44,333 nucleotides of DNA, from contig NCCY01000001.1 in NCBI GenBank assembly GCA_002279855.1, forward strand, positions 1-44,333, read 5' to 3'. Below, piece after piece: positions 1,410-18,948 of the stretch. The stretch is from Rhizobiales bacterium 12-68-15. GTDB lineage: Bacteria; Pseudomonadota; Alphaproteobacteria; Rhizobiales; Xanthobacteraceae. The notes under the pieces were generated by a model. The model saw nothing but the letters and a program-made list of their open reading frames with translations, had not been told where the DNA came from and made no database searches. The position numbers were made by a program, and so were the translations under genes. Every line of letters begins with the position of its first letter. The first letter of the stretch is position 1.

Positions 1410-3134
1410 GTAACCGGAGCAGATTCCGGGGCGGCTACGGTCGAGCGGCCTGCCGGATGAGATCTGGCAGGGGTGGGATTGAGGCCTGTGGGTTGATGCC
1501 GAGCCGATCGCCGAGATAGGCGAAGAACGAGACGCCGAGCTTCATTCAGGTCTTCATGAGGCCGAGGAAGACGTCCCGCGCCTGCCGTCCGGCGTCGCTC
1601 ATCGTGCCGCCGGAGATCTTGCGCTTGGTGACGAAGGCGCGGATGTCGTTCTCCGAGCCATTGGTATGCAACGGGATCTCGGGGCGCTCCAGAACCCGCA
1701 GCAGTTCGGGTTTTCGGCGATGAAGCCGCGCCAGGAGCCGGTCGAGCAGGTTGTATCCGGTTCGTGGCCGGAAGATGCGGGGTCGAATCGGGCGCGCAGG
1801 GCCGCAGCGCATCTCTTGCACGGATCCTTCTGCCAAGCCTTCAGGTCTCGATAGAACCACCAGATCAGCTGACGCACCAGCTCGACCGACTGTCGCTGCT
1901 GCGGCGTTGCCGGCACCAGCTTGTGGACGAGCCTCTCCGCATGCACCCAACACAGCGCGTGCTCGCCGACGCGGAACTGGCCGGCGCCATCGGAGACGAT
2001 CGCCGTGTCGCCCAGCAGGCCGTGGTGATGGATGGCGCCCCACAACGCACCTTCGGTGGCGATCCGTACCGGGTCCGGCGTCACGCCGAGCTGGTCGATG
2101 CCCAGCGCCGTCAGGTGCGCCTGCCATGCGGCCCCGTCCGCGAAGATCTTCTGCAGTGCGGCCTCGAGACGATCGATGACCGGTCCCGCCAGATTGCGCC
2201 CGCGCATGTAGGCCAGCGCCTCCTTGTTCACGACATGCTCGCCGTGACCGGCGCGAAGCGTGTCCAGGAACGCCGCGCGCGACTTCGAGGCACCGGTGCG
2301 GAAGGCCGTGAAGCGATCGTCGCCGATCTGCGTGGTGTAGCCGTCCGCGTGGGCGTGGCGTGCGGAGGTGTCATCCACCGTCACCCACTGTGCCGTCGCA
2401 AGGCCCGCGCGAAGCACGTCGCGATCCTCGCTCACGAACTCGTCCACGTGATCCGCTATCAGTCGCACGACCTGGCGCTTGGAGATGGCGATGCCGATCC
2501 CGGTCAGAAGAGCCGTCAGCCGCTCCGTCGTCACCTGTCCCTGCACGTGGCAGGCGAGGATGAAGCGCCGCAGGTTCGCACCCCAGCCGCCGACGATCCC
2601 CGGCGGCAGCGGCGCTACCACCCTCCCCCCCGCCGGCGTTACCCAGCGCTCGCGGCGATACCGCACGACCTCGGTGACCAGCACCAGGTCGCGAACCAGG
2701 ATCGTCTCGTACCCCTTGAAGCGCGATCCTGCCGGCACCTCCGCCGGAACGACCACCTCCCGGCTCACCTGATTGCCGTCCCGCTTGCCACCGCGCCGGC
2801 GGCGCTTGCCCTTGCCGCGCGACGGCCCTGTCGCCTTCTCCATGCCCGAAGGCTTCGACGTCTTGAACTTCGGCCGGGGCGGCAGCCCCTTCAGCGCGGC
2901 GATCTCGTCCTTGAGATCCCGGTTCTCTGCCTTCGCCGACGCAAGCTCCGTCTTCAGGCCGGCATTCTCGTCACGAAGGCTCCGAACCTCGGAAAGAAGC
3001 TCCACGACAAGATCGCGAAGCGCCCCAACCGGCCGGTCCCTGACCGTATCAGCGTCTCGTTCCGACATGGAAATCGTGAATCACGACCCCCACTTCCTGA
3101 AAAGCCCCTTCGCCCCGGAATTTGCTCCAGTTAC
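1410..3134 (-). mobile_element. IS66-family (single-ORF, ISBst12-like) insertion sequence, 1725 bp
   Basis: 24-bp terminal inverted repeats GTAACCGGAGCAGATTCCGGGGCG / GTAACTGGAGCAAATTCCGGGGCG. A 9-bp direct repeat GCGCTGATC sits at 1401-1409 and 3135-3143. Confidence 0.93.
1546..3068 (-). pseudogene. IS66 transposase with a frameshift and a premature stop
   Basis: The DDE motifs VDDT, IVSDGAGQF and HALCWVHAER are in one frame, while LHTNGSENDIR...KRKISGG is in another (shift near 1780). An in-frame TGA at 1548-1546 interrupts MKT*MKLGVSFFAYLGDRL. Confidence 0.85.
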
Positions 3135-3447
3135 GCGCTGATCGGCCGACGTCTGCGAGCCCGCTTCTTTGCCGCCCAGCAGACGGAGGTTGCCATCGGT
3201 TGTGCAGTCCTCAACCGCATGCTCGCCTGTGCACGCCTGCACTCGGTTCGCTGCAGCGCATAGAGGACGATATCAAAGACTCCATTGCGCCGCATGTCGC
3301 ATCCGTGCACCAACGCCCCCAAGTACGGTTCGTCAGACGGTGAAAAATCCGACGATGGCGTGCGCCCGAAATCATGCGCCAGGCGATGGCCGGCAAAATC
3401 CGTGGTCGTCATGAATAGGACGGGCTTGCACCTTCATCCGAAGAATG

Positions 3448-3463
3448 CTAAACGATCGTTTAG
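3448..3463. promoter_or_regulatory. Perfect 16-bp palindrome, probable TetR operator
   Basis: CTAAACGATCGTTTAG lies 16 bp upstream of the TetR start and overlaps a possible promoter (TTGCAC at 3426). Confidence 0.7.
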
Positions 3464-3479
3464 TTAGATAGGTGATGTC

Positions 3480-4073
3480 TTGACCTCGACAGCTTCGAAA
3501 CGTCAACCAAGCCGCTGGCCTGCCTTGCTGGACGCCGCGGCCATCTTCTTCGCCGAGCGCGGCTACCACGCCACCGCCATGCGGGACATCGCGCGTGTCG
3601 CGAACGTCACGCCGGGAGCGGTCTACTTCCATGTGGCGACCAAGCATGCGCTGCTCGTGGCCGTCTATCAGGAAGGCGTGGATCGCATCATCCGCCACTT
3701 CGATGAGGCGATCGCGGAGGAGTACGATCCGGTGAAGCGCTTCCGCTGCGCCATCCAGGCCCACCTTGAATCCATCCTCGATGAGAGCGCCTATGCGCGC
3801 GTCATCGTCCGCGTGCTGCCCGAGGATGTGCCGGAAGCGACGGAAGAGTTGAAGCGCCAGCGCGAGCGCTATGAGGAGCGCTTCCGCGCGCTGATCGACG
3901 GCCTCCATCTTCCTCAGGGCCGCAATCCCAAGCTGATGCGGCTGCTGCTCATCGGCGCTCTGAACTGGACCCCGGTCTGGTATCGCGGCTCCATCGGCGG
4001 CCTCGACCCTGTCGTCGATGAGATGGTCGCCTCGTTCGGCATCCAGCCCACACGAAGGACGAGCAAGAAATGA
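3480..4073 (+). CDS. TetR/AcrR-family transcriptional regulator
   Basis: N-terminal helix-turn-helix LLDAAAIFFAERGYHATAMRDIARVANVTPGAVYFH. C-terminal LIGALNWTPVWY is typical of acyl-CoA-sensing TetR proteins. TTG start. Confidence 0.92.
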   Translation: MTSTASKRQPSRWPALLDAAAIFFAERGYHATAMRDIARVANVTPGAVYFHVATKHALLVAVYQEGVDRIIRHFDEAIAEEYDPVKRFRCAIQAHLESILDESAYARVIVRVLPEDVPEATEELKRQRERYEERFRALIDGLHLPQGRNPKLMRLLLIGALNWTPVWYRGSIGGLDPVVDEMVASFGIQPTRRTSKK

Positions 4074-4516
4074 TCCATGCCGGCACGCGGCCCCTCCGTG
4101 TCCTCGTCACCAAGATCGGCCTCGACGGGCACGATCGCGGCAGCCGGATCGTTGCAGCCTATCTGCGCGACGCCGGCATGGAAGTGATCTACACGCCACC
4201 CTGGCAGACCATCCCGGGTGTCGTGAAGCTCGCCACTGAAGAGGACGTAGACGTCATCGGCATCAGCTCGCTGGCCACCGACCACCTGATCGTCCCGAAA
4301 ATGATGGAGGCGCTGCGCGCCGCGGGGCTCGGTCACGTGGGTGTCGTGGTGGGCGGCATCGTGCCGGAAGCGGAGCAGTCGGCGCTCGCCGCGGCCGGCG
4401 TCAGCCGGGTGTTCGGTCCGGGCGCCGCGCGCGAGGAGATCGTGGAGTGCGTGACGGCCCTCGGCCAGAAGTCGCGCGCGGAGCGTGTCGATGACTATTC
4501 GGAGGCAAACCCATGA
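4070..4516 (+). CDS. Acyl-CoA mutase small (cobalamin-binding) subunit, pivalyl-CoA mutase type
   Basis: DxHxxG base-off/His-on motif (GLDGHDRG), plus DVIGISSL and VVVGGIVP. Overlaps both neighbouring genes by 4 bp. Confidence 0.93.
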
Positions 4517-6192
4517 ACCAGGCCGCGGTGCAACTTCCACTCCCGGGGTTCGAGCAGGCCTCTGGCCAGTGGCGCTCTGACTATTCCCGCCAGGTGGCCG
4601 GCGAGAAGCCGGTCCGCAACCGCTCCGGCATTGAGGTTCAGCCGCTCTATTCGCCGCGCGACTGGGCGGGCGAGCGCTATCTGGATGATCTCGGCTTTCC
4701 TGGCCAATACCCCTTCACGCGCGGCATCTATCCATCCATGCATCGCGGCCGCACCTGGACCCAGCGCCAGCTCATCGGCCTCGGCACGCCGCAGGATTAC
4801 AATGTCCGGGTCCGCCGCATCATTGATGCGGGCGCCACCGCCATCAGTCTCCTGCCGTGCTGCTCGGGCTTCCGCGGCATCGATTGCGACGAGGTGGACC
4901 CGGTGCTGCTCGGCACCTGCGGCACGGTGGTGAACACCACCGACCACATGGATGCGGCGCTCGACGGGGTGCCCCTCGGCACCATCTCGACGGCCATGAA
5001 CGATCCTTCCCCGTTCACGCTTCTGGCCTTCACCCTGGGGGTGGCGCGCCGCCGCAGCATCGACTGGCGCAGCATCACCGGCACCTCGAACCAGAGCGAC
5101 TATATTTCCCATTTCATCGCCAACCACCAGTTCTACCGGCTGTCCCTGCCGGGGTCGCGGCGGGTGCTGCTGGACCACATCGAATTCTGCCGGCGCGCGT
5201 TGCCGAACTGGAATCCCCTGTCGGTAGTCGGCCAGCACATGCAGCAGGCCGGAGCGACGCCCGCCGAGACCATGGGCTTCACCTTGTCCTCGGCGATCCA
5301 GTACGCGCAGGACTGCATCGAGCGCGGCATGGACGTGGACGACGTCCTGCGCCGCTTTACCTTCTTCTTCGATATTTCGATCTCCTTCTTCGAGGAGATC
5401 GCCAAGTTTCGCGCCGGCCGACGCATCTGGGCGCGGATCGCCCGGGAGCGGCTCGGCGCGAAGGACCCCGCCTGCTGGCGCTTCAAGTTCCACGGCCAGA
5501 CCTCGGGCGTCGATCTCACCCAGCAGCAACCCTTGAACAACATCGCCCGCGTCTCGGTCCAGGCCATGGCCGGCATCCTCAGTGGGCTTCAGTCCATGCA
5601 CACGGATGCCTATGACGAGGCCATCGCCTGCCCCAGCGAGGAGACGGCGCGCATTGCCGTGGCCACCCAGAACATCCTGCGCGACGAGGCGCAGCTCTGC
5701 GCCGTGATCGATCCCCTCGGCGGTTCTTATTACGTGGAGCGGCTGACCGACCAGATGGAGGCGGAGATCGAGGCAGTGATTGCGCGGATCGACGCGGCCG
5801 GAGGCATGTACAAGGCGGCCGAGGTCGGGCTGGTGCAGACCATGATCGGCGAATCCGCGCTCGCCTTCCAGGAGCAGCTGGAGACAGGCGAGCGCAAGAT
5901 CGTTGGCGTCAACTGCTATCAGGTCGAGGAAGACCCGACCATTCCGCCCGCCGAGCGCCCGGACCCCGCGGCCATGGAGCGGCATGTGGAACGCTTCAAG
6001 GCATTCAAGCGCGAACGCAGCCAGGACGCGGTGGCACGCGCCCTCGACGCGCTGGCGCGGGCCGCCAACAGCGAGCGCGAGAACGTGTTCGAGAAGGTGG
6101 TGGAGGCGGCCGAGGCCGGCGTGACCCATGGCGAGATGGTGGGCTGCCTGCGCCGCGAGCTGGGCTTCGGCCATCCCCTAATCATCGCCTGA
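4513..6192 (+). CDS. Adenosylcobalamin-dependent acyl-CoA mutase large subunit, probably pivalyl-CoA/isovaleryl-CoA mutase
   Basis: Mutase motifs [29 protein letters not shown] and [10 protein letters not shown]. The specificity positions equivalent to methylmalonyl-CoA mutase Tyr89/Arg207 are Leu87 (WTQRQL) and Asn204. Confidence 0.9.
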
Positions 6193-6202
6193 CAGGATCG
6201 CC

Positions 6203-7198
6203 ATGGCCCCGTCCCCGTCCCCGATCCCGCTGGCGCAGCGGCTGCGCGCCGGCGATCCCCGCGCGGTGGCGCGGGCCATCAGTCTCATGGAGGAAGGCGG
6301 CAGCGCCGCCGCCGCGCTTCACGCCGCCATCCTGCCGGCGACGGGACGGGCGCTTACGATCGGCTTCACCGGCCCCCCCGGCGCCGGCAAGTCGACGCTG
6401 GTGGACGCCTTCGTGGCCGAGCTGCGCAAGAGCGGCCGTACGGTGGGGGTGGTGGCGGTGGACCCCTCGAGCCCCCTTTCGGGCGGGGCGGTGCTTGGCG
6501 ATCGCATTCGCATGGGCCGCCACACGGACGATCCGGGCGTCTTCATCCGCTCCATCGCCTCGCGCGGACATCTCGGGGGGCTCTCGCGGAGCATCCATCA
6601 TGTAGTGGACGTGCTCGACGCCGCGGGCCGCGACGCCATCGTGATCGAGACCGTGGGCGCCGGCCAGTCGGAGGTGGAGATCGTGGACGTGGCGGCGGTG
6701 CGCATCGTTGTGAACGCGCCCGGCCTCGGCGATGACGTGCAGGCCATCAAAGCCGGCATATTGGAGATCGCCAGCATCCTGGTGGTGAACAAGGCTGACC
6801 TGCCGCTTGCGCCCCGCACGGTCCGGCAGCTCAAGGCCATGCTGAGCCTGCGGCGGGAGGGTGAGGCGGACGTCCCGGTGCTGGAGACCATCGCCAGCGA
6901 GGACCGCGGCGTGGCGGAGCTGCTCGCCGCGGTGGACGCCTGCGCGACCTTGCGGCCGGAAGATGCGGCCGCCCGGCGGCGCACCCGCATCCGCCGCCTC
7001 GTCGCCGAAGGCGCGGCAGGGGAGATGCGGCGCCGCATTCTCGCCTGGGACGATGCGGCCTTCCTCGAAACGCTTGCGCGGGCGGCGCGAGGCGAGATCG
7101 ACATCGACACGGCCGCGCGCGCCGCTATGGAGGCGCAGGCCGGTGGCGTTCCACTTCCTGTCGCGGTTCCGCAGAAGGCCGATCGGAGGGCCGGATGA
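6203..7198 (+). CDS. meaB: MeaB/ArgK-family mutase chaperone GTPase
   Basis: GPPGAGKST, AVDPSSPLSGGAVLGDRIRM, IETVGAGQSE and NKAD motifs; adjacent to the mutase genes. Confidence 0.92.
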   Translation: MAPSPSPIPLAQRLRAGDPRAVARAISLMEEGGSAAAALHAAILPATGRALTIGFTGPPGAGKSTLVDAFVAELRKSGRTVGVVAVDPSSPLSGGAVLGDRIRMGRHTDDPGVFIRSIASRGHLGGLSRSIHHVVDVLDAAGRDAIVIETVGAGQSEVEIVDVAAVRIVVNAPGLGDDVQAIKAGILEIASILVVNKADLPLAPRTVRQLKAMLSLRREGEADVPVLETIASEDRGVAELLAAVDACATLRPEDAAARRRTRIRRLVAEGAAGEMRRRILAWDDAAFLETLARAARGEIDIDTAARAAMEAQAGGVPLPVAVPQKADRRAG

Positions 7199-7656
7199 AC
7201 GCGCCCGCCGATCGCGCGGAGGACCCGGCCGCCGAGGCGTGGCGCTGGGCGCGGTTCATGCTGTCGGGCGACCGGCCGGCCGGTGCCTTCGGCTTCGAGC
7301 TCGTCGCCGCCGGTCCGGGCGCGGCCGAGCTGGCGATGACGGTGCCCCCGGTGGCGCTCAACGCCTTTGGCACCTGCCATGGCGGTGTGCTGTTCACCCT
7401 GGCCGACGCGGCTCTTTCCATCGCCTGCAACAGCCGGGGCCAGCAATCGGTGGCCCAGACCTGCAGCATCGCCTTCCTGAGGCCCGTGCAGCCCGGCGAT
7501 CGGCTGATCGCCCGCGCCAGCGAGCGCGCCCGCACCGCCCGCACCGCCATCTATGACTGTGCCGTGGTCAACGGCGCCACCGGCAAGGTGGTCGCCGAGT
7601 TCCGCGGCCACTCCCGCACCATCGCGGACCACATGCCCATCGGTCCGGCAACCTGA
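7195..7656 (+). CDS. paaI: PaaI-like hotdog-fold thioesterase
   Basis: Contains LNAFGTCHGGVLFTLADAALSIACNS and VAEFRGHSR. Confidence 0.85.
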   Translation: MNAPADRAEDPAAEAWRWARFMLSGDRPAGAFGFELVAAGPGAAELAMTVPPVALNAFGTCHGGVLFTLADAALSIACNSRGQQSVAQTCSIAFLRPVQPGDRLIARASERARTARTAIYDCAVVNGATGKVVAEFRGHSRTIADHMPIGPAT

Positions 7657-7673
7657 GACGGGGCGACGCCAGC

Positions 7674-8924
7674 ATGACGGCACTGGAACAGCCGGTGATT
7701 TCCGACATCTATTTCACCGCCCGGGAGGTCATGGATCCCGAAGCGCGGGAGTGGGACCTCCTCGGCCGGCTCCCCGGCCTTGTCGCGCGCGCCATGCAGG
7801 CCCCCGGCTGGCGCCGCCACCTCGCAGGCATCGATCCGGGCGGCGTGAGGGATCGGCAGGCGCTCGCGTGCCTGCCGATCCTGCGCAAGGCGGACCTGAT
7901 GCGGCTCCAGGCGGAATGCCCCCCGCTGGGTGGGCTCGCCTGCGCGCCGGTCTCCTCCTTCAAACGCCTGTTTCTTTCCCCGGGACCGGTGGCGGAGCCG
8001 GAAGGCCATGGTCCCGACTGGTGGGGAACCGCCCGCGGCCTCCATGCCGCCGGCATGCGGCGGGGCGACATCGCCATCAACTGCTTTTCCCACCACCTCA
8101 CTCCGGGCGCCCGGTTCGTCGAGAGCGGCATGCACGCCATCGGTGCCGCCGTCATTGCGGGCGGCGTCGGCAACACCGACCAGCAGGTGGAAGCCATCTG
8201 CCGCTACGGCGCCACCTGTTATCTCGGCACGCCCGATTTTCTGAAGCTGCTGCTCGACCGGGCCGCGGAATTGGGCAAGAGCACGCGGACGCTGACGAAA
8301 GGGTTTGTCTCCGGCGCGGCGCTTCCCTCCTCCCTGCGGGCGTTGCTGTCGGCCCGCGGCGTTTCGGTCCTTCAGGGATACGCCTGCGCCGATGTCGGGC
8401 TGATCGCCTACGAGACCGTGCCGGACGACGGCTTGGTCCTCAACGAGGAGCGCCTCGTCGAAATCGTCGATCCCTCCACCGGCACGCCCGTGGAGCCGGG
8501 AGCGGTGGGCGAGGTGGTGGTCACGCGCTTCGACGCCGACTACCCGATGATCCGCCTATCCACCGGAGACCTCTCGGCCGTCAAGCCCGGCCTTTCCCCG
8601 TGCGGCAGGACCAATCAGCGGCTCGCGGGCTGGCTGGGCCGCGCCGACCAGAGCGCCAAGGTGAAGGGCATGTTCGTCCACCCCTCGCAGGTGGCCGAGC
8701 TCGCTTTGAGGTTTCCCGAGCTCGCCAATGTGCGTCTCGTGGTCCTTCGCGCACGGGAGCAGGACGCCCTGCGGCTCGATGCGGAATGCGCGAGCGCCGG
8801 TGCTGGCCTGTTGCAGGCCATCGCGCAGGCGCTGAGGGACATCACCAAGCTCGGCGGCGAGGTCCTGCTCGTGCCCCCGGGCACCCTGGCCCCGGACGGC
8901 CGCGCCATCATCGACATGCGCTGA
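7674..8924 (+). CDS. Phenylacetate-CoA ligase (PaaK)-like AMP-forming ligase
   Basis: Contains LPILRK, GTPDFL, QGYACADVG, YPMIRLSTGDLS and GRADQSAKVKGMFVHP. Confidence 0.85.
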   Translation: MTALEQPVISDIYFTAREVMDPEAREWDLLGRLPGLVARAMQAPGWRRHLAGIDPGGVRDRQALACLPILRKADLMRLQAECPPLGGLACAPVSSFKRLFLSPGPVAEPEGHGPDWWGTARGLHAAGMRRGDIAINCFSHHLTPGARFVESGMHAIGAAVIAGGVGNTDQQVEAICRYGATCYLGTPDFLKLLLDRAAELGKSTRTLTKGFVSGAALPSSLRALLSARGVSVLQGYACADVGLIAYETVPDDGLVLNEERLVEIVDPSTGTPVEPGAVGEVVVTRFDADYPMIRLSTGDLSAVKPGLSPCGRTNQRLAGWLGRADQSAKVKGMFVHPSQVAELALRFPELANVRLVVLRAREQDALRLDAECASAGAGLLQAIAQALRDITKLGGEVLLVPPGTLAPDGRAIIDMR

Positions 8925-9227
8925 GCACCGGCGGCCGGCGATCGCGAAGGCGCCCCGGTCACCCCGCCAACGCGCCAGCGCCCGGCGGACGCCTGCACTC
9001 GAACACGCAACGGGCAATCGCCCCTCGAAAGGCGCCTGCCTGCGGCTCGGCCCTGATGGGCCGCGTGCCGGCCGAGAGGTAACCTGGCGTTCCTTCTTTA
9101 CCTCCGCCGGACCCACCGGCCTGGCGACGCCTCCCAGCGCCCTCCGTGCAGTCGCCAGAGCCCGCCGGGAGAACGGCCAAGCTGGAGCAAATGGGGCAGC
9201 CAACAGCGTTCGTCGCCGACAAGCTGA

Positions 9228-9245
9228 TTGAACACTTGTTTAGTT
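9228..9245. promoter_or_regulatory. Imperfect second copy of the putative TetR operator
   Basis: TTGAACACTTGTTTAGTT compared with CTAAACGATCGTTTAGTT at 3448; about 80 bp upstream of the acyl-CoA synthetase. Confidence 0.5.
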
Positions 9246-9322
9246 CGATGGCCGCTGCTAGGCTCCCCTCCGATGGTTGAAAGACCATCCAAAATCCAAG
9301 GAAGGTCGAGGGAGGATGCAAG

Positions 9323-11302
9323 GTGGCCGACACCTACGCCGCAGACACCTTTCCCAAGCTGCTGCTCGACAATGCCGCCCGCCGCCCGGCCCGCCCCGCC
9401 ATGCGGGAGAAGCGATACGGAATCTGGAAGACCTGGACCTGGGCCGACCTCACCCGTGAGATCGAGGCGCTGTCCCTCGGCCTGAAGGTGGCGGGCATCG
9501 CGCCCGGCCAGCGCGTGGCGGTCATCGGCGTCAATCGCTCGCGCCTTTACTGGAGCATCCTCGCCGCTCAGTGCGTGGGCGCCGTGCCGGTTCCGCTCTA
9601 TCCGGACGCGGTAGCCCAGGAGATGGCTTACCTGCTCGCCCATGCGGAAGTCACCGCCGCCATCGTCGAGGACCAGGAGCAGGTGGACAAGCTCCTGTCC
9701 GTGCTCCCCGAGCTGCCGGCGCTCCGGCTCATCGCCTATGACGAGCCCCGCGGCATGCGCGATTATGTCTGCGAGGCCTGCGCGCTCACCAGCCTCGACG
9801 CGATCATGGCCTCCGGCCGGCAGGAGACTGCCGGCGCAGGCCTCAGCCGCGCCTTCACCGACTTAGTCGCCCGCACCGGGGGCGGCGACACCTCGATCAT
9901 CCTCTATACGTCCGGCACCACCGGTCGGCCGAAGGGGGCTGTCATCTCCTCCGAGCGGGCCATCAGCGCCGCCCGTCAGACGGTGGCGGCGGACCGCCTC
10001 GACGAGACCGACGAGGTGCTCGCCTATCTGCCCATCGCCTGGGCCGGTGACCACTATCTGAACTATGCCCAGGCCTTCGTTGCCGGCTTCTGCATGTCCT
10101 GCCCGGAAGAGCCGGAAACGGTGGCTATCGACATCTTCGAGATCGGCCCCACCTTCTATTTCGCGCCACCGCGGGTGCTGGAGGACCTGCTCACCCGCAT
10201 CATGATCTCCATGGAGGATGCGGGCCGTGCCAAGCGCTGGCTGTTCGACCGCTTCATGGGCGTGGCGCGGTGCTGGGGCGAGCCGATCCTCAACGGAAGG
10301 GCCGACGTGCCGCTCCACGGCCGCCTGCTCTACGCCCTCGGCGAGGCCCTGATCTACGGGCCGGTCAAGAACGTGCTCGGCTTCTCGCGCATCAAGGTCG
10401 CCTATACGGCGGGCGAGGCCATCGGGCCGGACCTGTTCGCCTTCTACCGCTCCATCGGCGTGAACCTGAAGCAGTTCTACGGCCAGACGGAAGCCTTCCT
10501 CTACATCTCGACCCAGCCCGACGGGCAGATCCGCTCCGATACGGTGGGGCCGGCGGCGCCGGGGGTGGAGATTCGCATCGTCGAGAGCGGCGAGGTGCAG
10601 TTCCGCTCGCCGGGCCAGTTCGTGGAATATCTCGGCGATCCCGTCCGCACCGCGGAGACCCTGACCCCGGACGGATTCGTGCGCACGGGCGACGCCGGCT
10701 TCATCGGCCAGGACGGGCATCTGCGCATCATCGACCGCGCCAAAGACGTGGGCCGGCTCACCGACGGAACCCTGTTCGCGCCCAAATATATCGAGAACAA
10801 GCTGAAGTTCTTTCCCAATATCAAGGAGGCCGTGGCCTTCGGCGACGGGCGCGACTTCGTTGCCGCCTTCATCAACATCGACCTCACCGCGCTCGGCAAC
10901 TGGGCGGAGCGCAACGGCGTGAGCTACGGCTCCTACCAGGAGCTGGCAGCGCTGCCGCAGGTCTACGACATCATCCGCGGCCACATCCGCCAGGTGAACC
11001 GTGATCTCGCGGCGGAGCCCGCCATGGCGGGCGCGGCCATTACCCGCTTCGTCATCCTGCACAAGGAGCTCGATGCCGATGACGGCGAGCTGACGCGCAC
11101 ACGCAAGGTGCGCCGCGCCTTCGTGCAGGAGAAGTATGCCGGCCTTGTCGCCACCCTCTACGAAAATGCCCGCGAATGCTTCGTGAGCACCGAAGTCACG
11201 TTCGAGGATGGCCGCAAGGGACGCATCGAGGCCACGCTCACCCTCGCCGAGGTCGACGATCGGGGCCCGCACCCTCACCAGCGCGAGACATTGGCAGCAT
11301 GA
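9323..11302 (+). CDS. Long-chain-fatty-acid CoA ligase-like AMP-binding protein
   Basis: YTSGTTGRPKG, YGQTE, TGDAG and IIDRAKD motifs. GTG start after a GGAGG site. Confidence 0.92.
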   Translation: MADTYAADTFPKLLLDNAARRPARPAMREKRYGIWKTWTWADLTREIEALSLGLKVAGIAPGQRVAVIGVNRSRLYWSILAAQCVGAVPVPLYPDAVAQEMAYLLAHAEVTAAIVEDQEQVDKLLSVLPELPALRLIAYDEPRGMRDYVCEACALTSLDAIMASGRQETAGAGLSRAFTDLVARTGGGDTSIILYTSGTTGRPKGAVISSERAISAARQTVAADRLDETDEVLAYLPIAWAGDHYLNYAQAFVAGFCMSCPEEPETVAIDIFEIGPTFYFAPPRVLEDLLTRIMISMEDAGRAKRWLFDRFMGVARCWGEPILNGRADVPLHGRLLYALGEALIYGPVKNVLGFSRIKVAYTAGEAIGPDLFAFYRSIGVNLKQFYGQTEAFLYISTQPDGQIRSDTVGPAAPGVEIRIVESGEVQFRSPGQFVEYLGDPVRTAETLTPDGFVRTGDAGFIGQDGHLRIIDRAKDVGRLTDGTLFAPKYIENKLKFFPNIKEAVAFGDGRDFVAAFINIDLTALGNWAERNGVSYGSYQELAALPQVYDIIRGHIRQVNRDLAAEPAMAGAAITRFVILHKELDADDGELTRTRKVRRAFVQEKYAGLVATLYENARECFVSTEVTFEDGRKGRIEATLTLAEVDDRGPHPHQRETLAA

Positions 11303-12159
11303 CGGCGCTCTTCTCCTCGACGGCCGCCGCAGGAGCGGCATCGGCCGCCCGCGCCGCCCCCGCGCCCATCGCGCGCAGCATCGCCGCCACCGCGCCGCTG
11401 CTGGAGATCCAGCGCGTCAGCCTCAGCTTCGGCGGGGTCCGGGCGCTGAACGATGTCTCGTTCGACATCCGGTCGGGCGAGATCCTCGCCATCATCGGCC
11501 CGAACGGCGCCGGCAAGACCTCGATGCTCAACTGCATCAACGGCTTCTACCGTCCCACCTCCGGCTACATCGTGCTCGACGGCGAGCGCCGCACCCAGAC
11601 CCGCCCTTGGTTCGCGGCCCGGCGCGGCATCGCCCGCACCTTCCAGAACGTGGCGCTCTTCAAGGGCATGACCACGCTCGACAACATCATGACCGGGCGC
11701 GCGCTGAAGATCCGCAGCAGCATCCTCGGCCAGCTGGTGCGCGTTGGCCCGGCCATGCGCGAAGAGATCGAGCACCGCCGCAAGGTGGAGGAGATCATCG
11801 ACTTCCTCGAGATCCAGGCCATCCGCAAGGTGCCGGTGGGCAAGCTGCCCTACGGGCTGCAGAAGAGGGTGGAGCTGGGGCGGGCGCTGGCCATGGAACC
11901 GCGGCTTCTCCTGCTCGACGAACCCATGGCGGGCATGAACCTGGAGGAGAAGGAAGACATGAGCCGCTTCATCCTTGAGGTGAACCAGACCTACGGCACC
12001 ACCATCACCCTGATCGAGCACGACATCGGCGTGGTGATGAACCTGTCCGACCGCATCGTCGTGCTCGACCACGGCTGCAAGATCGCCGACGGCACGCCGG
12101 CCGAGGTCAAGAGCGACCCGCGCGTCATCGACGCTTATCTCGGCCGGGGAGGAGCATGA
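11299..12159 (+). CDS. LIV-type ABC transporter ATP-binding protein (LivG-like)
   Basis: Walker A GPNGAGKT, LPYGLQKRVE and LLLDEP. The ATG overlaps the upstream stop codon. Confidence 0.92.
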   Translation: MTALFSSTAAAGAASAARAAPAPIARSIAATAPLLEIQRVSLSFGGVRALNDVSFDIRSGEILAIIGPNGAGKTSMLNCINGFYRPTSGYIVLDGERRTQTRPWFAARRGIARTFQNVALFKGMTTLDNIMTGRALKIRSSILGQLVRVGPAMREEIEHRRKVEEIIDFLEIQAIRKVPVGKLPYGLQKRVELGRALAMEPRLLLLDEPMAGMNLEEKEDMSRFILEVNQTYGTTITLIEHDIGVVMNLSDRIVVLDHGCKIADGTPAEVKSDPRVIDAYLGRGGA

Positions 12160-13103
12160 TGCTCGGGTTCGATCCGGCCAAGGTCGGCTTCTTTTTCGAG
12201 GTGCTCGCCTCCGGGCTGCTCTCGGGCATTCTCTACGCCCTGGTGGCGCTCGGGTTCGTGCTGATATTCAAGGCCTCCGGCGTGTTCAACTTCGCCCAGG
12301 GGGCCATGGTGCTGGTCGCCGGGCTCGCCTTGGTGCGGGCCCTCGGCTGGCTCGAGACACAGGTGCCGTTCTGGTTGGCGCTGATGCTCGCCATCGCGTT
12401 CGCGGGCGCGCTGATGACCGGCATCGCCTGGGCGGTGGAGCGCTTCGCCCTGCGCAAGCTCGTGAACCAGACCGCACTGACGCTGTTCATGGCCACCATC
12501 GGTATCACCTTCGTGCTGGAGGGCCTGGGCCAGCAGATCTTCGGGGCCCAGGTCTACAAGCTCGACATCGGCCTGCCGCGCGACAGCCTGTTCGTGCTGG
12601 AGAGCGTGTTCGACGGCGGGATCCTGCTGAACCAGCTCGATCTGTGGTCGGCCGTGCTCGCGGCCCTGCTGGTGGTGGCGCTGGCCGTCTTCTTTCAGAA
12701 GACACAGGTGGGCCGTGCCCTGCGTGCCGTGGCCGACGACCATGCGGCGGCGCAGTCGGTGGGCATTCCCCTGACGCGGGTGTGGTTCATCGTGTGGATG
12801 GTGGCCGGCTTCGTCGCCATCGCCGCGGCGGCGGTTTGGGGCTCGAAGGTGGGGGTGCAGTTCTCCCTCGTCTACGTGGCGCTCAAGGCCTTGCCGGTCA
12901 TCATCGTCGGCGGCCTCACCTCCATCCCCGGCGCCATCGTCGGCGGCCTGCTCATCGGCGCCGGAGAGAAGCTGGCCGAGGTCTATCTCGGTCCTTCCGT
13001 CGGCGGCGGGATCGAGCACTGGTTTGCCTATGTCGTCGCCCTCCTGGTCCTCCTGGTGCGCCCGCAGGGGCTATTCGGGGACCGTATCATCGAGCGGATC
13101 TGA
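12156..13103 (+). CDS. LIV-type ABC transporter permease (LivH-like)
   Basis: Hydrophobic; contains YALVALGFVLIFKASGVFNFAQG, GRALRAVADD and RPQGLFG. Confidence 0.92.
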   Translation: MMLGFDPAKVGFFFEVLASGLLSGILYALVALGFVLIFKASGVFNFAQGAMVLVAGLALVRALGWLETQVPFWLALMLAIAFAGALMTGIAWAVERFALRKLVNQTALTLFMATIGITFVLEGLGQQIFGAQVYKLDIGLPRDSLFVLESVFDGGILLNQLDLWSAVLAALLVVALAVFFQKTQVGRALRAVADDHAAAQSVGIPLTRVWFIVWMVAGFVAIAAAAVWGSKVGVQFSLVYVALKALPVIIVGGLTSIPGAIVGGLLIGAGEKLAEVYLGPSVGGGIEHWFAYVVALLVLLVRPQGLFGDRIIERI

Positions 13104-13105
13104 GC

Positions 13106-14194
13106 ATGTTCTACCGTGAGGCCGGCCACTTCCACGACAAGTACCGGGACGAGATGGCGATCTTCCAGATCCGGGAGGACCGCATCGGCATCCGCCTGCT
13201 GCTGATCGCTGCCTTTGTCGCCGTGCCGCTTCTCCACGCGGCCGGCGTGCCGCCCTTCGCCGGCGACTATCTCTTCAGCGCGGTGCTGACGCCGCTCCTG
13301 ATCCTCGCCACCGCCGCCATCGGCCTCAACCTGCTCGTCGGCTATTGCGGGCAGATCTCCCTCGGCGCCGGTGCCTTCATGGGGGTGGGGGCCTACGCTG
13401 CCTACAACGTGTCGGTCCACCTGCCGGGACTGCCGCTCCTCGCCACCTTCCTGCTGGCGGGTGCGGCAAGCGCCGTCGTGGGCCTCGTCTTCGGCATCCC
13501 CTCGCTGCGCATCAAGGGTCTCTACCTCGCGGTCGCGACGCTCGCCGCGCAATTCTTCCTGGACTGGGCGTTCCTGCGCGTCGGGTGGATCACCAATTAT
13601 TCCGCCTCCGGCTCGGTCACTGCGCCGCCCCTCGTCATCGCCGGCTGGCACGTGGACTCGCCGGTGGAACGCTATCTGCTCGCCCTCGCCGTCGCGGCCA
13701 TCGTGGCGCTCGGCGCCGCGAACCTGGTGCGGGGCAATCTCGGCCGGCAATGGATGGCGATCCGCGACATGGACATCGCGGCCGAAATCATCGGCATCCG
13801 CCCCATGCAGTCGAAGCTGACCGCGTTCGCCATCTCCTCCTTCATCCTGGGGCTCGCGGGGGCGCTGTGGGCGTTCGTCAACCTGCGCGCGTGGGAGCCC
13901 TACGCCTTCTCCATCGACCGCTCGTTCCAGCTGCTGTTCATCGTCATCGTCGGCGGGCTCGGCTCCATCATTGGCTGCTTTTTGGGGGCGGCCTTCATCT
14001 GGCTGCTGCCGCTCGCGGTCGAAGGCATCCCGCGCTGGCTCTCGATCCCCATCGCTGCGGATGCCGCGGCGAACCTGACGCTCGGCGTGTTCGGCGCGCT
14101 GATCCTCATCACGCTGATCTTCGAGCCCCACGGCCTCGCCCGCATCTGGGCCATCATGAAACACAAACTCCGACGCTGGCCCTTCCCCTACTGA
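13106..14194 (+). CDS. LIV-type ABC transporter permease (LivM-like)
   Basis: Contains GLNLLVGYCGQISLG, LRIKGLYLAVATLA, AIRDMDIAAEIIGI and EPHGL. Confidence 0.92.
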   Translation: MFYREAGHFHDKYRDEMAIFQIREDRIGIRLLLIAAFVAVPLLHAAGVPPFAGDYLFSAVLTPLLILATAAIGLNLLVGYCGQISLGAGAFMGVGAYAAYNVSVHLPGLPLLATFLLAGAASAVVGLVFGIPSLRIKGLYLAVATLAAQFFLDWAFLRVGWITNYSASGSVTAPPLVIAGWHVDSPVERYLLALAVAAIVALGAANLVRGNLGRQWMAIRDMDIAAEIIGIRPMQSKLTAFAISSFILGLAGALWAFVNLRAWEPYAFSIDRSFQLLFIVIVGGLGSIIGCFLGAAFIWLLPLAVEGIPRWLSIPIAADAAANLTLGVFGALILITLIFEPHGLARIWAIMKHKLRRWPFPY

Positions 14195-14260
14195 CCGAGG
14201 GGCAAAAGCGGAGCGCCAGAGCCGGCCCAAGCCGGCCAAACTCCAAGGGAGGAGAAGCCA

Positions 14261-15586
14261 ATGAAGAATCCCACGACGAAGTTGAGTATGCTTCTGGCGG
14301 CAGCGCTGCTGGCCCTACCGGTCGCAGCGCGTGGCGAGGAGAACGGGCAGTTCATCCCCGTTCTGTCCTACCGCACGGGGCCGTTCGCGCCAAACGGCAT
14401 CCCCTGGGCCAACGGCATCGTCGACTATTTCGAGCTAATCAACCAGCGCGACGGCGGCATCAACGGCGTGAAGATCATCTACGAGGAATGCGAGACGGGG
14501 TACGCCACCGACCGCGGCGTCGAATGCTACGAGCGCCTCAAGAACAAGGGGCCGACCGGAGCCGCGTTCGTCAATCCCCTCTCCACCGGCATCACCTTCG
14601 CCCTCACCGAGAAGGCGCCGGTAGACAAGATCCCCCTCATCACCGCCGGCTTTGGCCGCTCCGAATCGAAAGACGGCAGCGTCTTCACCTGGAACTTCCC
14701 GCTGATTGGCACTTATTGGACCGCGGCGGACGTGGCCGTGCAGTATATCGCCAAGGAATTCGGCGGTCCGGACAAGCTCAAGGGCCGCAAGATCGTGCTG
14801 CTCTATCATGATTCCCCGTTCGGCAAGGAACCGATCCCGGTTCTGGAGGCGCTCGCCAAGAAATACGACTTCCAGCTTACGCTCATCCCGGTGGCCAATC
14901 CGGGCGTGGAGCAGAAGTCGCAATGGCTGCAGATCCGCCAGCTCCGTCCCGACTATGTGGTGATGTGGGGCTGGGGCGTGATGAACCCCACGGCCATCCA
15001 GGAGGCCGCCAACGTCAACTTCCCGCGCGAGAAGATGCTCGGCTTCTGGTTCGCGGGCGCGGAGCCCGACGTCGTCCCCGCCGGCGCCCAGGCGGTGGGC
15101 TACAAGGCGCTGATGCTGCAGCACGGGGCGGGGCGCGCGCGCGTCCACGACGACCTCGACAAGTACGTCTACGGCAAGGGGCTCGGCAAATCGAACCCCA
15201 CCGATTCCAGCGGCGTGCTGTTCAATCGCGGCATGGTGGGGGCCATGCTCGGCGTCGAGGGCATCCGCACCGCCATGGCCAAGTTCGGCAACAAGCCGCT
15301 CACCGGCGAGCAGGTGCGCTGGGGCATCGAGCACCTCGCGCTCGACGAGAACAGGCTGAAGGAGCTGGGCTTCGAGGGCATGATCAGCCCCATCAAGATC
15401 AGCTGCTCGGACCACGAGGGCTCCCACACCTCCCGCATCCAGCAATGGGACGGCAAGCAGTGGAAGGTAATCTCCGACTGGTACACGGCGGACGAGACCA
15501 TGCTCGCACCCATGCTGAAGGATGCGGCCGGCCGCTACGCCAAGGAGAAGGGCATCACGCCGCGCGACTGCAGCAAGGAGTCCTGA
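14261..15586 (+). CDS. ABC transporter periplasmic substrate-binding protein (LIV/PBP1 family)
   Basis: Signal peptide followed by YRTGPFAPNG, GGINGVKI and ECETGY. GGAGG ribosome-binding site. Confidence 0.92.
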   Translation: MKNPTTKLSMLLAAALLALPVAARGEENGQFIPVLSYRTGPFAPNGIPWANGIVDYFELINQRDGGINGVKIIYEECETGYATDRGVECYERLKNKGPTGAAFVNPLSTGITFALTEKAPVDKIPLITAGFGRSESKDGSVFTWNFPLIGTYWTAADVAVQYIAKEFGGPDKLKGRKIVLLYHDSPFGKEPIPVLEALAKKYDFQLTLIPVANPGVEQKSQWLQIRQLRPDYVVMWGWGVMNPTAIQEAANVNFPREKMLGFWFAGAEPDVVPAGAQAVGYKALMLQHGAGRARVHDDLDKYVYGKGLGKSNPTDSSGVLFNRGMVGAMLGVEGIRTAMAKFGNKPLTGEQVRWGIEHLALDENRLKELGFEGMISPIKISCSDHEGSHTSRIQQWDGKQWKVISDWYTADETMLAPMLKDAAGRYAKEKGITPRDCSKES

Positions 15587-15595
15587 GCACCAGAA

Positions 15596-15630
15596 CGTCC
15601 CCCCGCATCACGCAAGTGGGGGGGGGGACG
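15596..15630 (+). repeat. Intercistronic GC hairpin containing a G10 run
   Basis: CGTCCCCCC (15596-15604) pairs with GGGGGGACG (15622-15630), just after the binding-protein stop codon. There is no U tail. Confidence 0.65.
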
Positions 15631-15710
15631 ATCCCGCCCGTCGCATCGACCCACGCGAACCGGTGCCCACTTCGCTCGAACACGCTCGAGCCGATCCAGG
15701 GAACGACGCC

Positions 15711-16544
15711 ATGACGCCACAAGCTCCCGCGGGAGATACCGCCCCGGCCATTCTCTCGGTCAACAACATCGAGGTGATCTATGACCACGTCGCGCTGGTG
15801 CTGAGGGGCGTCTCCCTCACGGTGCCGGAGGGCGGCATCGTCGCCCTCCTCGGCGCCAACGGCGCCGGCAAGACCACGACGCTGCGCGCGGTGTCGAACC
15901 TGCTCAGGTCCGAGCGGGGTGACGTCACCAAGGGCTCCGTCGTGTTCGCCGGCGAGCGGGTGGACCGCCTGACCGCCAACGACCTCGTCCGGCGCGGCTG
16001 CATTCAGGTGCTGGAGGGACGGCGCTGCTTCGGCCACCTGTCGGTGGAGGAGAACCTGCTCACCGGCGCCTATACCCGCCGGGACGGCGCGGCCGCCGTC
16101 CGGCAGAACCTCGAGGACATCTACGGGACCTTTCCCCGCCTGCGCGAGCGCCGCAAGGCGCAGGCGGGCTATCTCTCCGGCGGCGAGCAGCAGATGTGCG
16201 CCATTGGCCGCGCGCTGATGTCGAAGCCTCGCATGATCCTCCTGGACGAGCCCTCCATGGGCCTCGCCCCGCAGGTGGTGGAAGAGATCTTCGAAATCGT
16301 CCACGCCCTCAACCAGCACCGCGGCGTCTCTTTCCTGTTGGCCGAGCAAAACACCAACATGGCGCTGAAATACGCTACCTACGGCTACATCCTGGAGAGC
16401 GGGCGTATCGTCATGGACGGGCCTACAGCGGACATGCGCAACAATGAGGATGTAAGGGAATTCTATCTCGGCACCGCCAGCGGCGAGGGCCGGAACTTCC
16501 GCAACGTGAAGACCTATAAGCGGCGGAAGAGGTGGCTCAATTGA
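15711..16544 (+). CDS. LIV-type ABC transporter ATP-binding protein (LivF-like)
   Basis: Contains GANGAGKTT, LSGGEQQM and LLDEPSMGLAP. Confidence 0.92.
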   Translation: MTPQAPAGDTAPAILSVNNIEVIYDHVALVLRGVSLTVPEGGIVALLGANGAGKTTTLRAVSNLLRSERGDVTKGSVVFAGERVDRLTANDLVRRGCIQVLEGRRCFGHLSVEENLLTGAYTRRDGAAAVRQNLEDIYGTFPRLRERRKAQAGYLSGGEQQMCAIGRALMSKPRMILLDEPSMGLAPQVVEEIFEIVHALNQHRGVSFLLAEQNTNMALKYATYGYILESGRIVMDGPTADMRNNEDVREFYLGTASGEGRNFRNVKTYKRRKRWLN

Positions 16545-16739: not shown

Positions 16740-17435
16740 ATGATGAACGACCCCGATCACCGCCAGCAAGCCTCGCACACCCTCTCCCGCGTAACGAAGA
16801 TGCTGGTGGATCTCGGCTGCCTGCGCCATCTTGGGCCCATCGGCCGCTATGCGCTCGGCAATGCAGTGCTGACGCTCGGCTATCCCCTGATGGTGAGCCT
16901 CAGCCCATGGCGGGAGGCACGGTCGGTCATGCGCGAATTGGCGGAGGTGGAGTCCGGGCAGGTCTCCCTCGGCGTGCGGGACCGCTTCTCGGTGGTGTCC
17001 ATAGAATCCATCCCGGGCCCACACCGCAGCATGGTCATGCCGGACCTCGGGCCGGTGTGGCCGCTTCTCCACAGCGCCATGGGCCGTGCTCATCTCGCCG
17101 CCCTGGCGCCGGCCGATCGCGACGCCCTGCTCGCCGACTTCAGGCGACGCGGATTCATATCGTCCTTCGGTCTTGCTCGGCCGGACATCTATGCCGGTGC
17201 GGTACCCCTGCGGCTGCGCTGGAACGAGGAGATCATGGCCTTGAACTGCAGCATCGCAGCGTCGCCCTCCCTGGGGCCGGAGGCGTTCACCGCCCTGATC
17301 GGCCGGAAGCTGCTGCTGACCGCGCGCGCCATCGAAGCAGCGGTGGAATTGGCCGTGCAGCCGGACGGGCTGATCACCGAGCGCGAGCTGTCACGCATCC
17401 CGCTCTCGATACGGCCCCTGCGTCCGAACCCCTGA
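16740..17435 (+). pseudogene. IclR-family regulator with apparent internal deletions
   Basis: IclR effector-domain features (MRELA...VSLGVRD, SAMGRAHLA, GAVP...ALNC) are present. Most of the N-terminal helix-turn-helix appears missing, though the reading frame is open. Confidence 0.65.
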
Positions 17436-17931: not shown

Positions 17932-18948
17932 TGTTTGATCCCGGGCTTTGATGGTGCAGTCTTTTCGCCGGAGTGGAAGGAGGCACTATGGGCCAGGTTC
18001 TTCACGGGAGCGCCACGACGACAGAGGCAGTGCGTCGAGCGATACAACATAGTCAAGAGAGCCTGAGGGCGCTGGCCAAGCGTTACGGGATCAATCAGAA
18101 GACGGTCGCGAAGTGGAAGAAGCGCACCTCGGTCGCTGATCTGCCGACAGGCCCGAGGGCTCCGACATCGACGGTTCTGTCGATCGAGGAAGAGGCGGTC
18201 ATCGTCGCCTTCCGCCGGCATACGCTGCTGCCGCTCGACGACTGCCTCTATGCCTTGCAGGCGACGATCCCGCATCTGACGCGCTCATCCCTGCATCGCT
18301 GCCTGCAGCGCCACGGCATCAGCCGGCTGCCGGAGGTGGAGGGCGACAAGGAGCCGAAGAGGCGGTTCAAGTCCTATCCGATCGGCTTCTTCCATATCGA
18401 TATCGCCGAGGTGCAGACTGCCGAGGGTAAGCTGTACCTTTATGTAGCCATTGATCGCACGAGCAAGTTCGCCTTCGTGCAGGTCGTCAGGAAAACAGGC
18501 CGGACCTCGGCGTCAGCCTTCCTCGTGGCCCTGATCGACGCGGTGCCCTACCGGATCCACACCGTTCTGACGGACAACGGCATCCAGTTTACCTTCCCGC
18601 CGCGCTATGCCGACGGGCCGACAGCTCGCTACATCACCCATATGTTCGACATGCGCTGCCGAGAGAACGGCATCGAGCACCGCCTGACCAAGGTGAAGCA
18701 CCCCTGGACCAATGGCCAGGTCGAGCGGATGAACCGGACCATCAAGGAAGCGACCGTCAAGCGCTTCCACTACGATGATCATCACCAGTTCGAAACGCAT
18801 CTCGCCGACTTCGTCGCCGCCTACAATTTCGGCCGGCGCCTGAAAACCCTCAGAGGCCTCACGCCCTACGAATTCATCTGCAAATGCTGGACTTCAGAGC
18901 CAGAGAGATTCATCCTCGATCCAATCCAGCAAATGCCGGGACTGAACA
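17932..18948 (+). mobile_element. IS481-family insertion sequence, 1017 bp
   Basis: TGT...ACA ends with imperfect inverted repeats TGTTTGATCCCGGGCTTTGATGG / TGTTCAGTCCCGGCATTTGCTGG. No target duplication is visible. Confidence 0.93.

What the first reader, a model, noticed from the sequence alone, without database searches (positions are those of the whole stretch)
3448..16544. Self-contained uptake, activation and rearrangement module for quaternary-carbon (pivalate-like) acids
Seen: TetR, mutase small and large subunits, MeaB, a PaaI-like thioesterase and a PaaK-like ligase, mostly with overlapping or tightly spaced start/stop codons, then an acyl-CoA synthetase and a complete five-gene LIV-type ABC transporter. 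Established: B12 acyl-CoA mutases with Leu/Asn at the two specificity positions were characterised as pivalyl-CoA mutase in Xanthobacter autotrophicus; I recall this locus as being that one or very close. Inference: the flanking genes supply import, CoA activation, proofreading and regulation, making a whole route from pivalate or larger neo-acids to isovaleryl-CoA-type products. I am not aware of those flanking genes being characterised.
Basis: partly seen in the sequence, partly recalled or inferred. Interest (0 to 1): 0.82.

Follow-up and report, generated by a model that had tools for sequence, protein, structure and literature searches.

The report
Mobile pivalyl-CoA mutase regulon with importer
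This is a near-identical copy of the Xanthobacter plasmid locus for the known vitamin-B12 enzyme pivalyl-CoA mutase, and a shared predicted repressor site suggests that the neighbouring importer and CoA ligase likely belong to the same mobile route, which would feed hard-to-degrade branched acids into leucine-type breakdown.

Summary
All 12 genes are present and intact. Window 1935-17150 is 99.4% identical to X. autotrophicus Py2 plasmid pXAUT01 (Xaut_5045-5034), so the mutase (L87/N204) is the recalled pivalyl-CoA mutase itself. The scan reported this family four times before on other DNA.

New here: a palindrome at 3448-3463 defines a TetR operator motif. It has one other window match, 97 bp before the acyl-CoA synthetase, inside a 17-base block invariant in 4 of 4 orthologous loci. 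This ties ligase and transporter to the mutase.

Corrections: only TetR-small-large-MeaB is widely conserved; the full transporter accompanies 6 of 86 Leu/Asn mutases. The PaaK-like protein lacks the canonical P-loop, is missing or frameshifted in two relatives, and is probably not the activating ligase. The module is not self-contained: downstream liu-type genes and the B12 adenosyltransferase lie elsewhere.

The block is IS-flanked, not found in the 7 other genomes of the host genus, and shared at 99% with another genus. The substrate, pivalate or a larger acid, is untested.

The parts
3448..3463 (.). Predicted TetR operator 1: perfect 16-base palindrome overlapping a likely -10 element (TTGCAC 3426-3431, 17 bases, TAAACG 3449-3454; promoter inferred, not found by the consensus scan)
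   Evidence: (31.7 bits)
3480..4073 (+). TetR-family repressor (Xaut_5045 orthologue), predicted to bind both operators
   Evidence: motif present in 73 of 74 loci with this TetR and 0 of 11 without it
4070..4516 (+). Pivalyl-CoA mutase small, B12-binding subunit (identical to Xaut_5044)
4513..6192 (+). Pivalyl-CoA mutase large subunit, L87/N204 (99.5% to Xaut_5043)
6203..7198 (+). MeaB G-protein chaperone
   Evidence: beside 81 of 86 Leu/Asn mutases
7195..7656 (+). PaaI-type hotdog thioesterase; proofreading or CoA-release role inferred
   Evidence: a thioesterase lies within 5 kb in 22 of 65 full loci
7674..8924 (+). Atypical PaaK-like protein of the generic ligase-transporter cassette; ligase activity doubtful
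   Evidence: missing in L021, frameshifted in G435
9226..9245 (.). Predicted TetR operator 2, 97 bases before the acyl-CoA synthetase; bases 9229-9245 invariant in 4 of 4 orthologous loci
9323..11302 (+). Long-chain-type acyl-CoA synthetase with intact adenylation motifs; likely the activating ligase
11299..12159 (+). LivG-like ABC ATPase
12156..13103 (+). LivH-like permease
13106..14194 (+). LivM-like permease
14261..15586 (+). Periplasmic binding protein (Peripla_BP_6); ligand unknown, nearest solved structure 4RU0
15711..16544 (+). LivF-like ABC ATPase
16740..17435 (+). IclR-family regulator remnant: 231 residues against 286 in the L018 genome, shortened in its N-terminal DNA-binding part
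1409..3135 (-). IS66-family element with 25-base terminal inverted repeats, left flank
17932..18948 (+). IS481-family element, right flank; the last 93 bases of a second copy in the same orientation form window 1-93

Best explanation
The block is a two-operon unit around pivalyl-CoA mutase, predicted to be repressed by its TetR through two operators, in which the ABC transporter likely imports a branched carboxylic acid, the 9323 synthetase likely makes its CoA ester, and the B12 mutase would turn the quaternary-carbon acyl-CoA into an isovaleryl-type acyl-CoA for the host's leucine pathway. Shown: gene content, identity to the Py2 locus, pocket residues, the two motif sites and their conservation, IS flanks, sharing across genera. 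Recalled, not read: the in vitro pivalyl-/isovaleryl-CoA activity of Xaut_5043/5044 (Kitanishi et al. 2015, J Biol Chem). Inferred: TetR binding and release by an acyl-CoA, import, activation by the 9323 ligase rather than the PaaK-like protein, MeaB loading and repair of B12, PaaI clearing stalled CoA esters, catabolic direction. The imported acid is about as likely to be pivalate itself as a larger acid that ends at a quaternary carbon.
For: 99.39% identity to pXAUT01. NCBI names 96-97% identical proteins 'pivalyl-CoA mutase large subunit'. A motif trained only on TetR upstream regions gives two sites of at least 11 bits in 44 kb, one before each operon. The second site survives retraining without six close loci (17.0 bits; 4 of 20,000 spacer shuffles reach it). 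It scores 26.7 bits before the inverted cassette of L021 and is kept in L018 and G435. In other loci the motif precedes non-orthologous ligases (L019, L020, L074, L077, L067, L073, L076, L085). All 12 genes have dN/dS 0.04-0.25 against the L018 genome, with similar dS. Ligases beside Leu/Asn mutases fall in at least five lineages. Methylcrotonyl-CoA-carboxylase-like clusters neighbour the mutase in L015, L016, L052 and G435. The host has isovaleryl-CoA dehydrogenase, an MCC-like cluster and a PduO adenosyltransferase.
Against: No activity, binding, growth or induction data were found for any flanking gene. The ligase-transporter cassette is a very common generic unit: 77 of 80 metagenome homologues show no Leu/Asn mutase in the DNA held (many contigs short). 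35 of 65 full Leu/Asn loci have no ligase within 5 kb. Site 2 alone is unremarkable genome-wide: 10 sites of at least 15 bits in 3.75 Mb, close to the 3.1 per Mb null. More distant mutase-linked cassettes (L013, L014, L079, L092) lack a site before the ligase. The synthetase is of a long-chain type, an odd fit for a five-carbon acid. No HMG-CoA lyase was found in the 82%-complete host with the one query tried.
Confidence: 0.62

Rival explanations
1. The natural substrate is a larger quaternary-carbon acid (2,2-dimethylalkanoate, terminal tert-butyl acid or 1-methyl-cycloalkane acid), and pivalyl-CoA is only the tested model or a beta-oxidation end product.
For: Long-chain-type ligase. A thiolase lies within 5 kb in 10 of 65 loci. 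Carboxylase clusters near the mutase use dehydrogenases that are not isovaleryl-CoA dehydrogenase. One such cluster, with a dehydrogenase just under the cyclohexanecarboxyl-CoA dehydrogenase cut-off (533.5 against 575.35 bits), lies beside the mutase in both G435 and the Sulfitobacter plasmid at 74-86% identity. The family is common in soil and marine genomes.
Against: Pocket motifs are nearly invariant over 86 loci, which fits one narrow specificity (the search patterns favour this). The alicyclic-type cluster was seen at only two loci and is separated from the module by IS-like genes in G435. This rival overlaps the best explanation and changes only the substrate.
Confidence: 0.3
2. The ligase-transporter operon is under the same repressor but takes up an ordinary branched or fatty acid such as isovalerate, and is not needed to use quaternary acids.
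For: Paralogous cassettes sit beside MCC-like leucine-catabolism genes on host-type chromosomes (L104, host contig C256). Most Leu/Asn loci lack the transporter.
Against: The orthologous cassette keeps the operator and co-segregates with the mutase: 13 of the 17 listed binding-protein relatives on contigs of at least 40 kb share a longest-contig length with a mutase hit (indirect; 25 of 31 members were listed).
Confidence: 0.15
3. The module runs the other way: isovaleryl-CoA is rearranged to pivalyl-CoA, and PaaI releases pivalate or the ester primes neo-branched lipids.
For: The reaction is reversible (passage in PMC10481361 on IcmF). A thioesterase accompanies 22 of 65 full loci.
Against: An importer and a ligase under the same motif point inward. 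There are no biosynthetic genes in the block. The related hcm clusters are catabolic (PMC13188929).
Confidence: 0.07
4. The two operons are chance neighbours carried by insertion sequences, with no shared function.
For: IS elements on both flanks and rearranged pieces of pXAUT01 around the block.
Against: A 17-base invariant footprint in 4 of 4 loci despite dS near 0.9 and an inversion. No site before 4 unlinked paralogues or before 76 of 77 metagenome homologues; the one hit is the TetR's own site in a spacer shared with a mutase operon.
Confidence: 0.05

Closest known systems
Pivalyl-CoA mutase locus Xaut_5045-Xaut_5034 of Xanthobacter autotrophicus Py2 plasmid pXAUT01 (CP000782.1); enzyme characterised in Kitanishi et al. 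2015 (recalled; paper not held)
   Same: Same 12 genes in the same order, 99.39% DNA identity, 24 synonymous and 27 non-synonymous differences, both operator sites identical.
   Different: Different flanks. Py2 has the coenzyme M/epoxide cluster on one side and a second mutase cluster (Xaut_5018-5021) on the other; the window has Xre-RES, IS66 and IS481. Py2's match ends inside the IclR remnant at 17150.
2-Hydroxyisobutyryl-CoA mutase (hcm) clusters, e.g. Aquincola tertiaricarbonis (PDB 4R3U, 6HDW) and Mycolicibacterium ELW1 ibc cluster 2 (PMC13188929)
   Same: Split B12 mutase plus MeaB, ligase, regulator and transporter on mobile DNA, for a tertiary-carbon acid.
   Different: Pocket Leu/Leu/Asn here against Ile/Asp/Gln (numbering I90/D117/Q208 recalled). 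TetR in place of GntR. The window's ligases are not HCL-type, although 16 other Leu/Asn loci use an HCL-like ligase.
IcmF, fused isobutyryl-CoA mutase
   Same: Also interconverts pivalyl- and isovaleryl-CoA (passage in PMC10481361).
   Different: Fused protein; the window scores 200 bits against a cut-off of 1500.
Generic acyl-CoA synthetase-LivG-LivH-LivM-binding protein-LivF-PaaK-like cassette of Proteobacteria (binding protein structure 4RU0)
   Same: Same genes; ligase homologues at 51-63% identity are common.
   Different: Here the PaaK-like gene sits before the cassette and the cassette carries the mutase operator. I found no paper giving a substrate for this cassette.

Membership tests
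Pivalyl-CoA mutase (PCM) | Separate large and B12-binding small subunits | tested here: met
Pivalyl-CoA mutase (PCM) | Leu and Asn at the two specificity positions (feature recalled) | tested here: met
   L87 and N204
Pivalyl-CoA mutase (PCM) | Orthology to Xaut_5043/Xaut_5044 | tested here: met
   99.5% and 100% identity
Pivalyl-CoA mutase (PCM) | B12-dependent pivalyl-/isovaleryl-CoA interconversion | not testable with these tools
   Recalled for the Py2 enzyme; paper not held; NCBI names close homologues accordingly
2-Hydroxyisobutyryl-CoA mutase (HCM) | Ile/Asp/Gln pocket residues | tested here: not met
   Leu87, Leu114 and Asn204 at those columns
Methylmalonyl-CoA mutase | Tyr and Arg carboxylate-binding residues | tested here: not met
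   PRK09426 413 bits against 876
Phenylacetate-CoA ligase PaaK / HCL (gene 7674-8924) | Canonical Ser/Thr-Ser-Gly-Thr-x-Gly P-loop and C-terminal catalytic lysine | tested here: not met
   SPGP-type loop in 26 of 27 family members; tail lysine in 22 of 27 but not in the window, L001 or L018; canonical loop in 17 of 17 HCL-like proteins; TIGR02155 80 bits against 646
Acyl-CoA synthetase, ANL superfamily (gene 9323-11302) | Intact adenylation motifs (P-loop, YGQTE, TGD, hinge, terminal lysine) | tested here: met
   (motif names recalled); PF00501
Acyl-CoA synthetase, ANL superfamily (gene 9323-11302) | Activity on tertiary or quaternary-carbon acids | not testable with these tools
   no close solved or named relative
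LIV (HAAT) ABC transporter | Two ATPases, two permeases and one binding protein | tested here: met
LIV (HAAT) ABC transporter | Equivalence to the amino-acid LIV-I system | tested here: not met
   All four scored genes fall below the LivG/H/M/F cut-offs and the binding protein matches no NCBIfam model
TetR regulon with palindromic operator | Conserved palindrome at operon heads that tracks the TetR gene | tested here: met
   73 of 74 loci with the TetR against 0 of 11 without (7 of those with long flanks); 12 of the 13 loci outside the training set have a site at the operon head
TetR regulon with palindromic operator | Direct binding and ligand-dependent release | not testable with these tools
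   needs a gel shift

The most novel reading that the evidence does not exclude
Pivalyl-CoA mutase is the hub of a widespread TetR regulon for breaking down larger quaternary-carbon acids (neo-acids, 1-methyl-cycloalkane or naphthenic-type acids, terpenoid remnants). It has recruited importers and ligases at least five times, and this version is now spreading between genera on IS-flanked DNA in waters and soils. It would be the missing aerobic entry route for a class of acids that beta-oxidation cannot attack, with a ready operator-based biosensor.
Probability: 0.25. Interest if true: 0.7.

Novelty: new member of a known kind. Interest (0 to 1): 0.4.

Why it matters
The enzyme is known in vitro, but I found no held paper on its role in the cell. 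The operator gives a direct way to find the natural inducer and substrate (reporter or gel-shift screen), names which ligase to assay first, and removes a likely decoy (the PaaK-like gene). Quaternary-carbon acids resist beta-oxidation, so a defined uptake, activation and rearrangement route that moves between genera matters for biodegradation and for engineering C5 chemistry. The mechanism type is already known from hcm clusters, so surprise is moderate.

Tried and rejected
The primary paper (Kitanishi 2015) and five related papers were not held, so what it says about neighbouring genes is unknown to me. Full-text searches listed nothing on the flanking genes or an operator; most subscription papers are outside the library and no supplements were seen.

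The consensus promoter and terminator scan found 0 promoters and a chance number of terminators. A genome-wide motif scan gave about the null number of sites, so no further regulon members are claimed in the host.

RNA runs were contigs only: one metatranscriptome has low-depth near-identical pieces over 3473-4996 and 9344-9710, which cannot show transcription, starts or level.

Rejected: that the PaaK-like protein is the cognate ligase; that the 12-gene order is the family norm; that the block is misassembled. Habitat labels of the four runs flagged as possible sources, and of other runs of their studies P1-P3, were not used. No fold or complex prediction was run, because neither would settle the substrate. 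My ORF caller missed genes in some loci (L012, L013, L030), so presence counts use tblastn.
Full report
What is there. The 12 genes described are present, open and in the stated order. They form two tight blocks split by a 398-base spacer: TetR, small subunit, large subunit, MeaB, PaaI, PaaK-like; then acyl-CoA synthetase (ACS), LivG, LivH, LivM, binding protein, LivF. Window 1935-17150 is 99.39% identical to Xanthobacter autotrophicus Py2 plasmid pXAUT01, genes Xaut_5045 to Xaut_5034. The large subunit differs from Xaut_5043 at 3 of 559 residues and the small subunit is identical. L87 and N204 align with Ile and Gln of 2-hydroxyisobutyryl-CoA mutase and with Tyr and Arg of methylmalonyl-CoA mutase; L114 replaces an Asp of the former that I recall as hydroxyl-binding. 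That Xaut_5043/5044 is the characterised pivalyl-CoA mutase is recalled from Kitanishi et al. 2015, which is not held. NCBI gives that name to 96-97% identical proteins. Earlier scan notes reached the same family assignment on other DNA.

How conserved the neighbourhood is. All have Leu and Asn at the two positions, though the search patterns favour this. The small subunit is adjacent in 83, MeaB in 81 and a TetR orthologue in 74. The full five-gene transporter with ACS is present in 6 (L001, L013, L014, L018, L021, L092), partly in L079; the 12-gene order is present in 2. Of the 65 loci with at least 5 kb on both sides, 30 have some ligase within 5 kb, 22 a thioesterase and 10 a thiolase, against expectations of about 6%, 1% and 3% from the host genome's gene density. 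These loci include kin and the queries came from neighbours, so the contrast is overstated. The best-matching ligase was HCL-like in 15, ACS in 5 and two other AMP-binding types in 10. So the core is TetR-small-large-MeaB and the accessory genes are swappable.

The operator. A perfect 16-base palindrome lies at 3448-3463. A weight matrix built only from regions upstream of TetR orthologues converged on AACTAAACGATCGTTTAGTT with 62 of 75 regions contributing. It finds a site of at least 11 bits in 73 of the 74 loci with the TetR and in 0 of 11 loci without it; 12 of the 13 loci outside the training set have a site at the head of the operon. In the 44-kb window it finds two sites, 3446 (31.7 bits) and 9226 (17.3 bits, 97 bases before ACS). 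Retrained without the window, Py2 and four close loci, the second site scores 17.0, reached by 4 of 20,000 shuffles of the spacer. Bases 9229-9245 are invariant in 4 of 4 orthologous loci, including L021, where the cassette is inverted and ACS dS is about 0.9, and the site is kept in G435. Four unlinked paralogous cassettes score below zero. Of 77 metagenome ACS homologues with at least 300 bases upstream, one has a site of at least 13 bits, and it is the TetR's own site in a spacer shared with a Leu-type mutase operon. Against this: a 17-bit site is no rarer than chance genome-wide, and the distant linked cassettes L013, L014, L079 and L092 have no site before ACS; three of these follow MeaB on the same strand and may be read through. 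Elsewhere the motif precedes whichever ligase the locus has. Binding is predicted, not shown. An earlier scan note, seen after this analysis, describes similar operator pairs beside B12 mutases; I did not check whether it is the same motif.

Which ligase. ACS has all adenylation motifs. In a quick tree of 90 homologues (6 short rows dropped), the 12 mutase-linked copies need six label changes, at least five forced by strongly supported branches. This fits repeated recruitment of a common cassette; 'unlinked' includes short contigs and no clade test was run. The PaaK-like protein belongs to a subfamily with an SPGP loop in place of the canonical P-loop (26 of 27 members). The window, L001 and L018 copies also lack the tail lysine that 22 of 27 keep. 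It has the highest dN/dS of the 12 genes (0.25), is absent in L021 and is frameshifted in G435. It is still under some purifying selection, so a non-catalytic or unusual role is possible, but it is a poor candidate for activation. The binding protein's ligand is unknown; its nearest structure is 4RU0. Its close relatives appear to travel with the mutase: 13 of 17 listed members on contigs of at least 40 kb share a longest-contig length with a mutase hit, an indirect measure.

Downstream route. The block holds nothing beyond the mutase. The host has an isovaleryl-CoA dehydrogenase (E 3e-205 to 4O5M), an MCC-like cluster on contig C256 and a PduO adenosyltransferase; one HMG-CoA lyase query found nothing in this 82%-complete genome. 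Carboxylase clusters closer to methylcrotonyl- than to geranyl-CoA carboxylase lie beside the mutase in L015, L016, L052 and G435, which supports a 3-methyl-branched product. Their dehydrogenases are mostly not isovaleryl-CoA dehydrogenase. One cluster shared by G435 and the Sulfitobacter plasmid has a dehydrogenase just under the cyclohexanecarboxyl-CoA dehydrogenase cut-off. With the long-chain-type ACS and the thiolases, this keeps larger substrates open.

Mobility. The block lies between two same-direction IS481 ends (1-93 and 18856-18948) with an IS66 element at 1409-3135. It was not found in the 7 other genomes of the host genus. The mutase type occurs in 8 of 400 sampled genomes of the family. 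G418, of another genus (g71), has the block at 99% while its rpoB fragment is 87% identical to the host's; the whole module is in 3 of 31 g71 genomes. G418's second contig also matches window 95-3033 and 18949-19847 at 99-100% in other places. DNA runs from freshwater, soil, groundwater and hydrocarbon studies, none marked as a possible source, hold near-identical pieces with differing right flanks. Recent transfer is the simplest reading; wrong binning of a plasmid contig is not excluded.

Literature seen. Passages of PMC10481361, PMC9974510 and PMC2847961; passages and section 7 of PMC13188929; otherwise search listings only. None describes the flanking genes, but the primary paper could.

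Verdict. A real copy of a known locus. The enzyme is known; the regulon link, the choice of ligase and the recent spread are new detail with a clear test. New member of a known kind, interest 0.4.

Noticed in passing
window 351-1219: Xre-RES toxin-antitoxin pair, 99% to G418 C2; an 81-base stretch present in three metagenome runs is missing at 1200/1201, changing the end of the RES gene.
   Followed up: partly
L199 1026-10156 (G435) and L015 3-5467: A dehydrogenase-hydratase-dehydrogenase-ligase-carboxylase cluster (with HMG-CoA lyase in G435), 74-86% identical between two unrelated hosts, lies beside the mutase in both; the first dehydrogenase resembles cyclohexanecarboxyl-CoA dehydrogenase.
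   Followed up: partly
L017 18222-24440: The same transporter-PaaK-like cassette lies on the Methylibium petroleiphilum PM1 plasmid near the Rieske oxygenase pair that I recall as mdpJK of tert-butanol breakdown; its ACS appears to be replaced by an insertion element.
   Followed up: partly
L104 and host contig C256 (L195): A chromosomal paralogue of the ligase-transporter cassette sits beside a different TetR and an MCC-like cluster, with weak matches to the same motif.
   Followed up: partly
L192 6864-9641: A different mutase (IcmF-like motif, recalled) with a MeaB domain lies next to another ACS-LIV-PaaK-like cassette.
   Followed up: no
L012 11744-28959: Sphingobium sp. YC-XJ3 plasmid carries two copies of thiolase/ligase plus TetR-mutase-MeaB, separated by IS elements, each with motif sites.
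   Followed up: partly
L023-L054 (soil Xanthobacteraceae-type loci): In 24 related loci the mutase operon is followed by an FAD-binding dehydrogenase (PRK12834), and in 11 it is preceded by ketopantoate hydroxymethyltransferase, an enzyme that makes a quaternary carbon; may be kinship only.
   Followed up: no
L001 43440-46292 and 39775-40350: Py2 carries a second split mutase with an HCL-type ligase, MeaB and an adenosyltransferase about 10 kb from this block; the window lacks it.
   Followed up: partly
window 19963-42379: A second catabolic region: LIV-type transporter, thiolase, FAD oxidoreductase, FadB-like protein, CoA ligase, LysR, acyl-CoA dehydrogenase, MmgE/PrpD, aldehyde dehydrogenase and flavin monooxygenase, with lower GC from 31 kb.
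   Followed up: no
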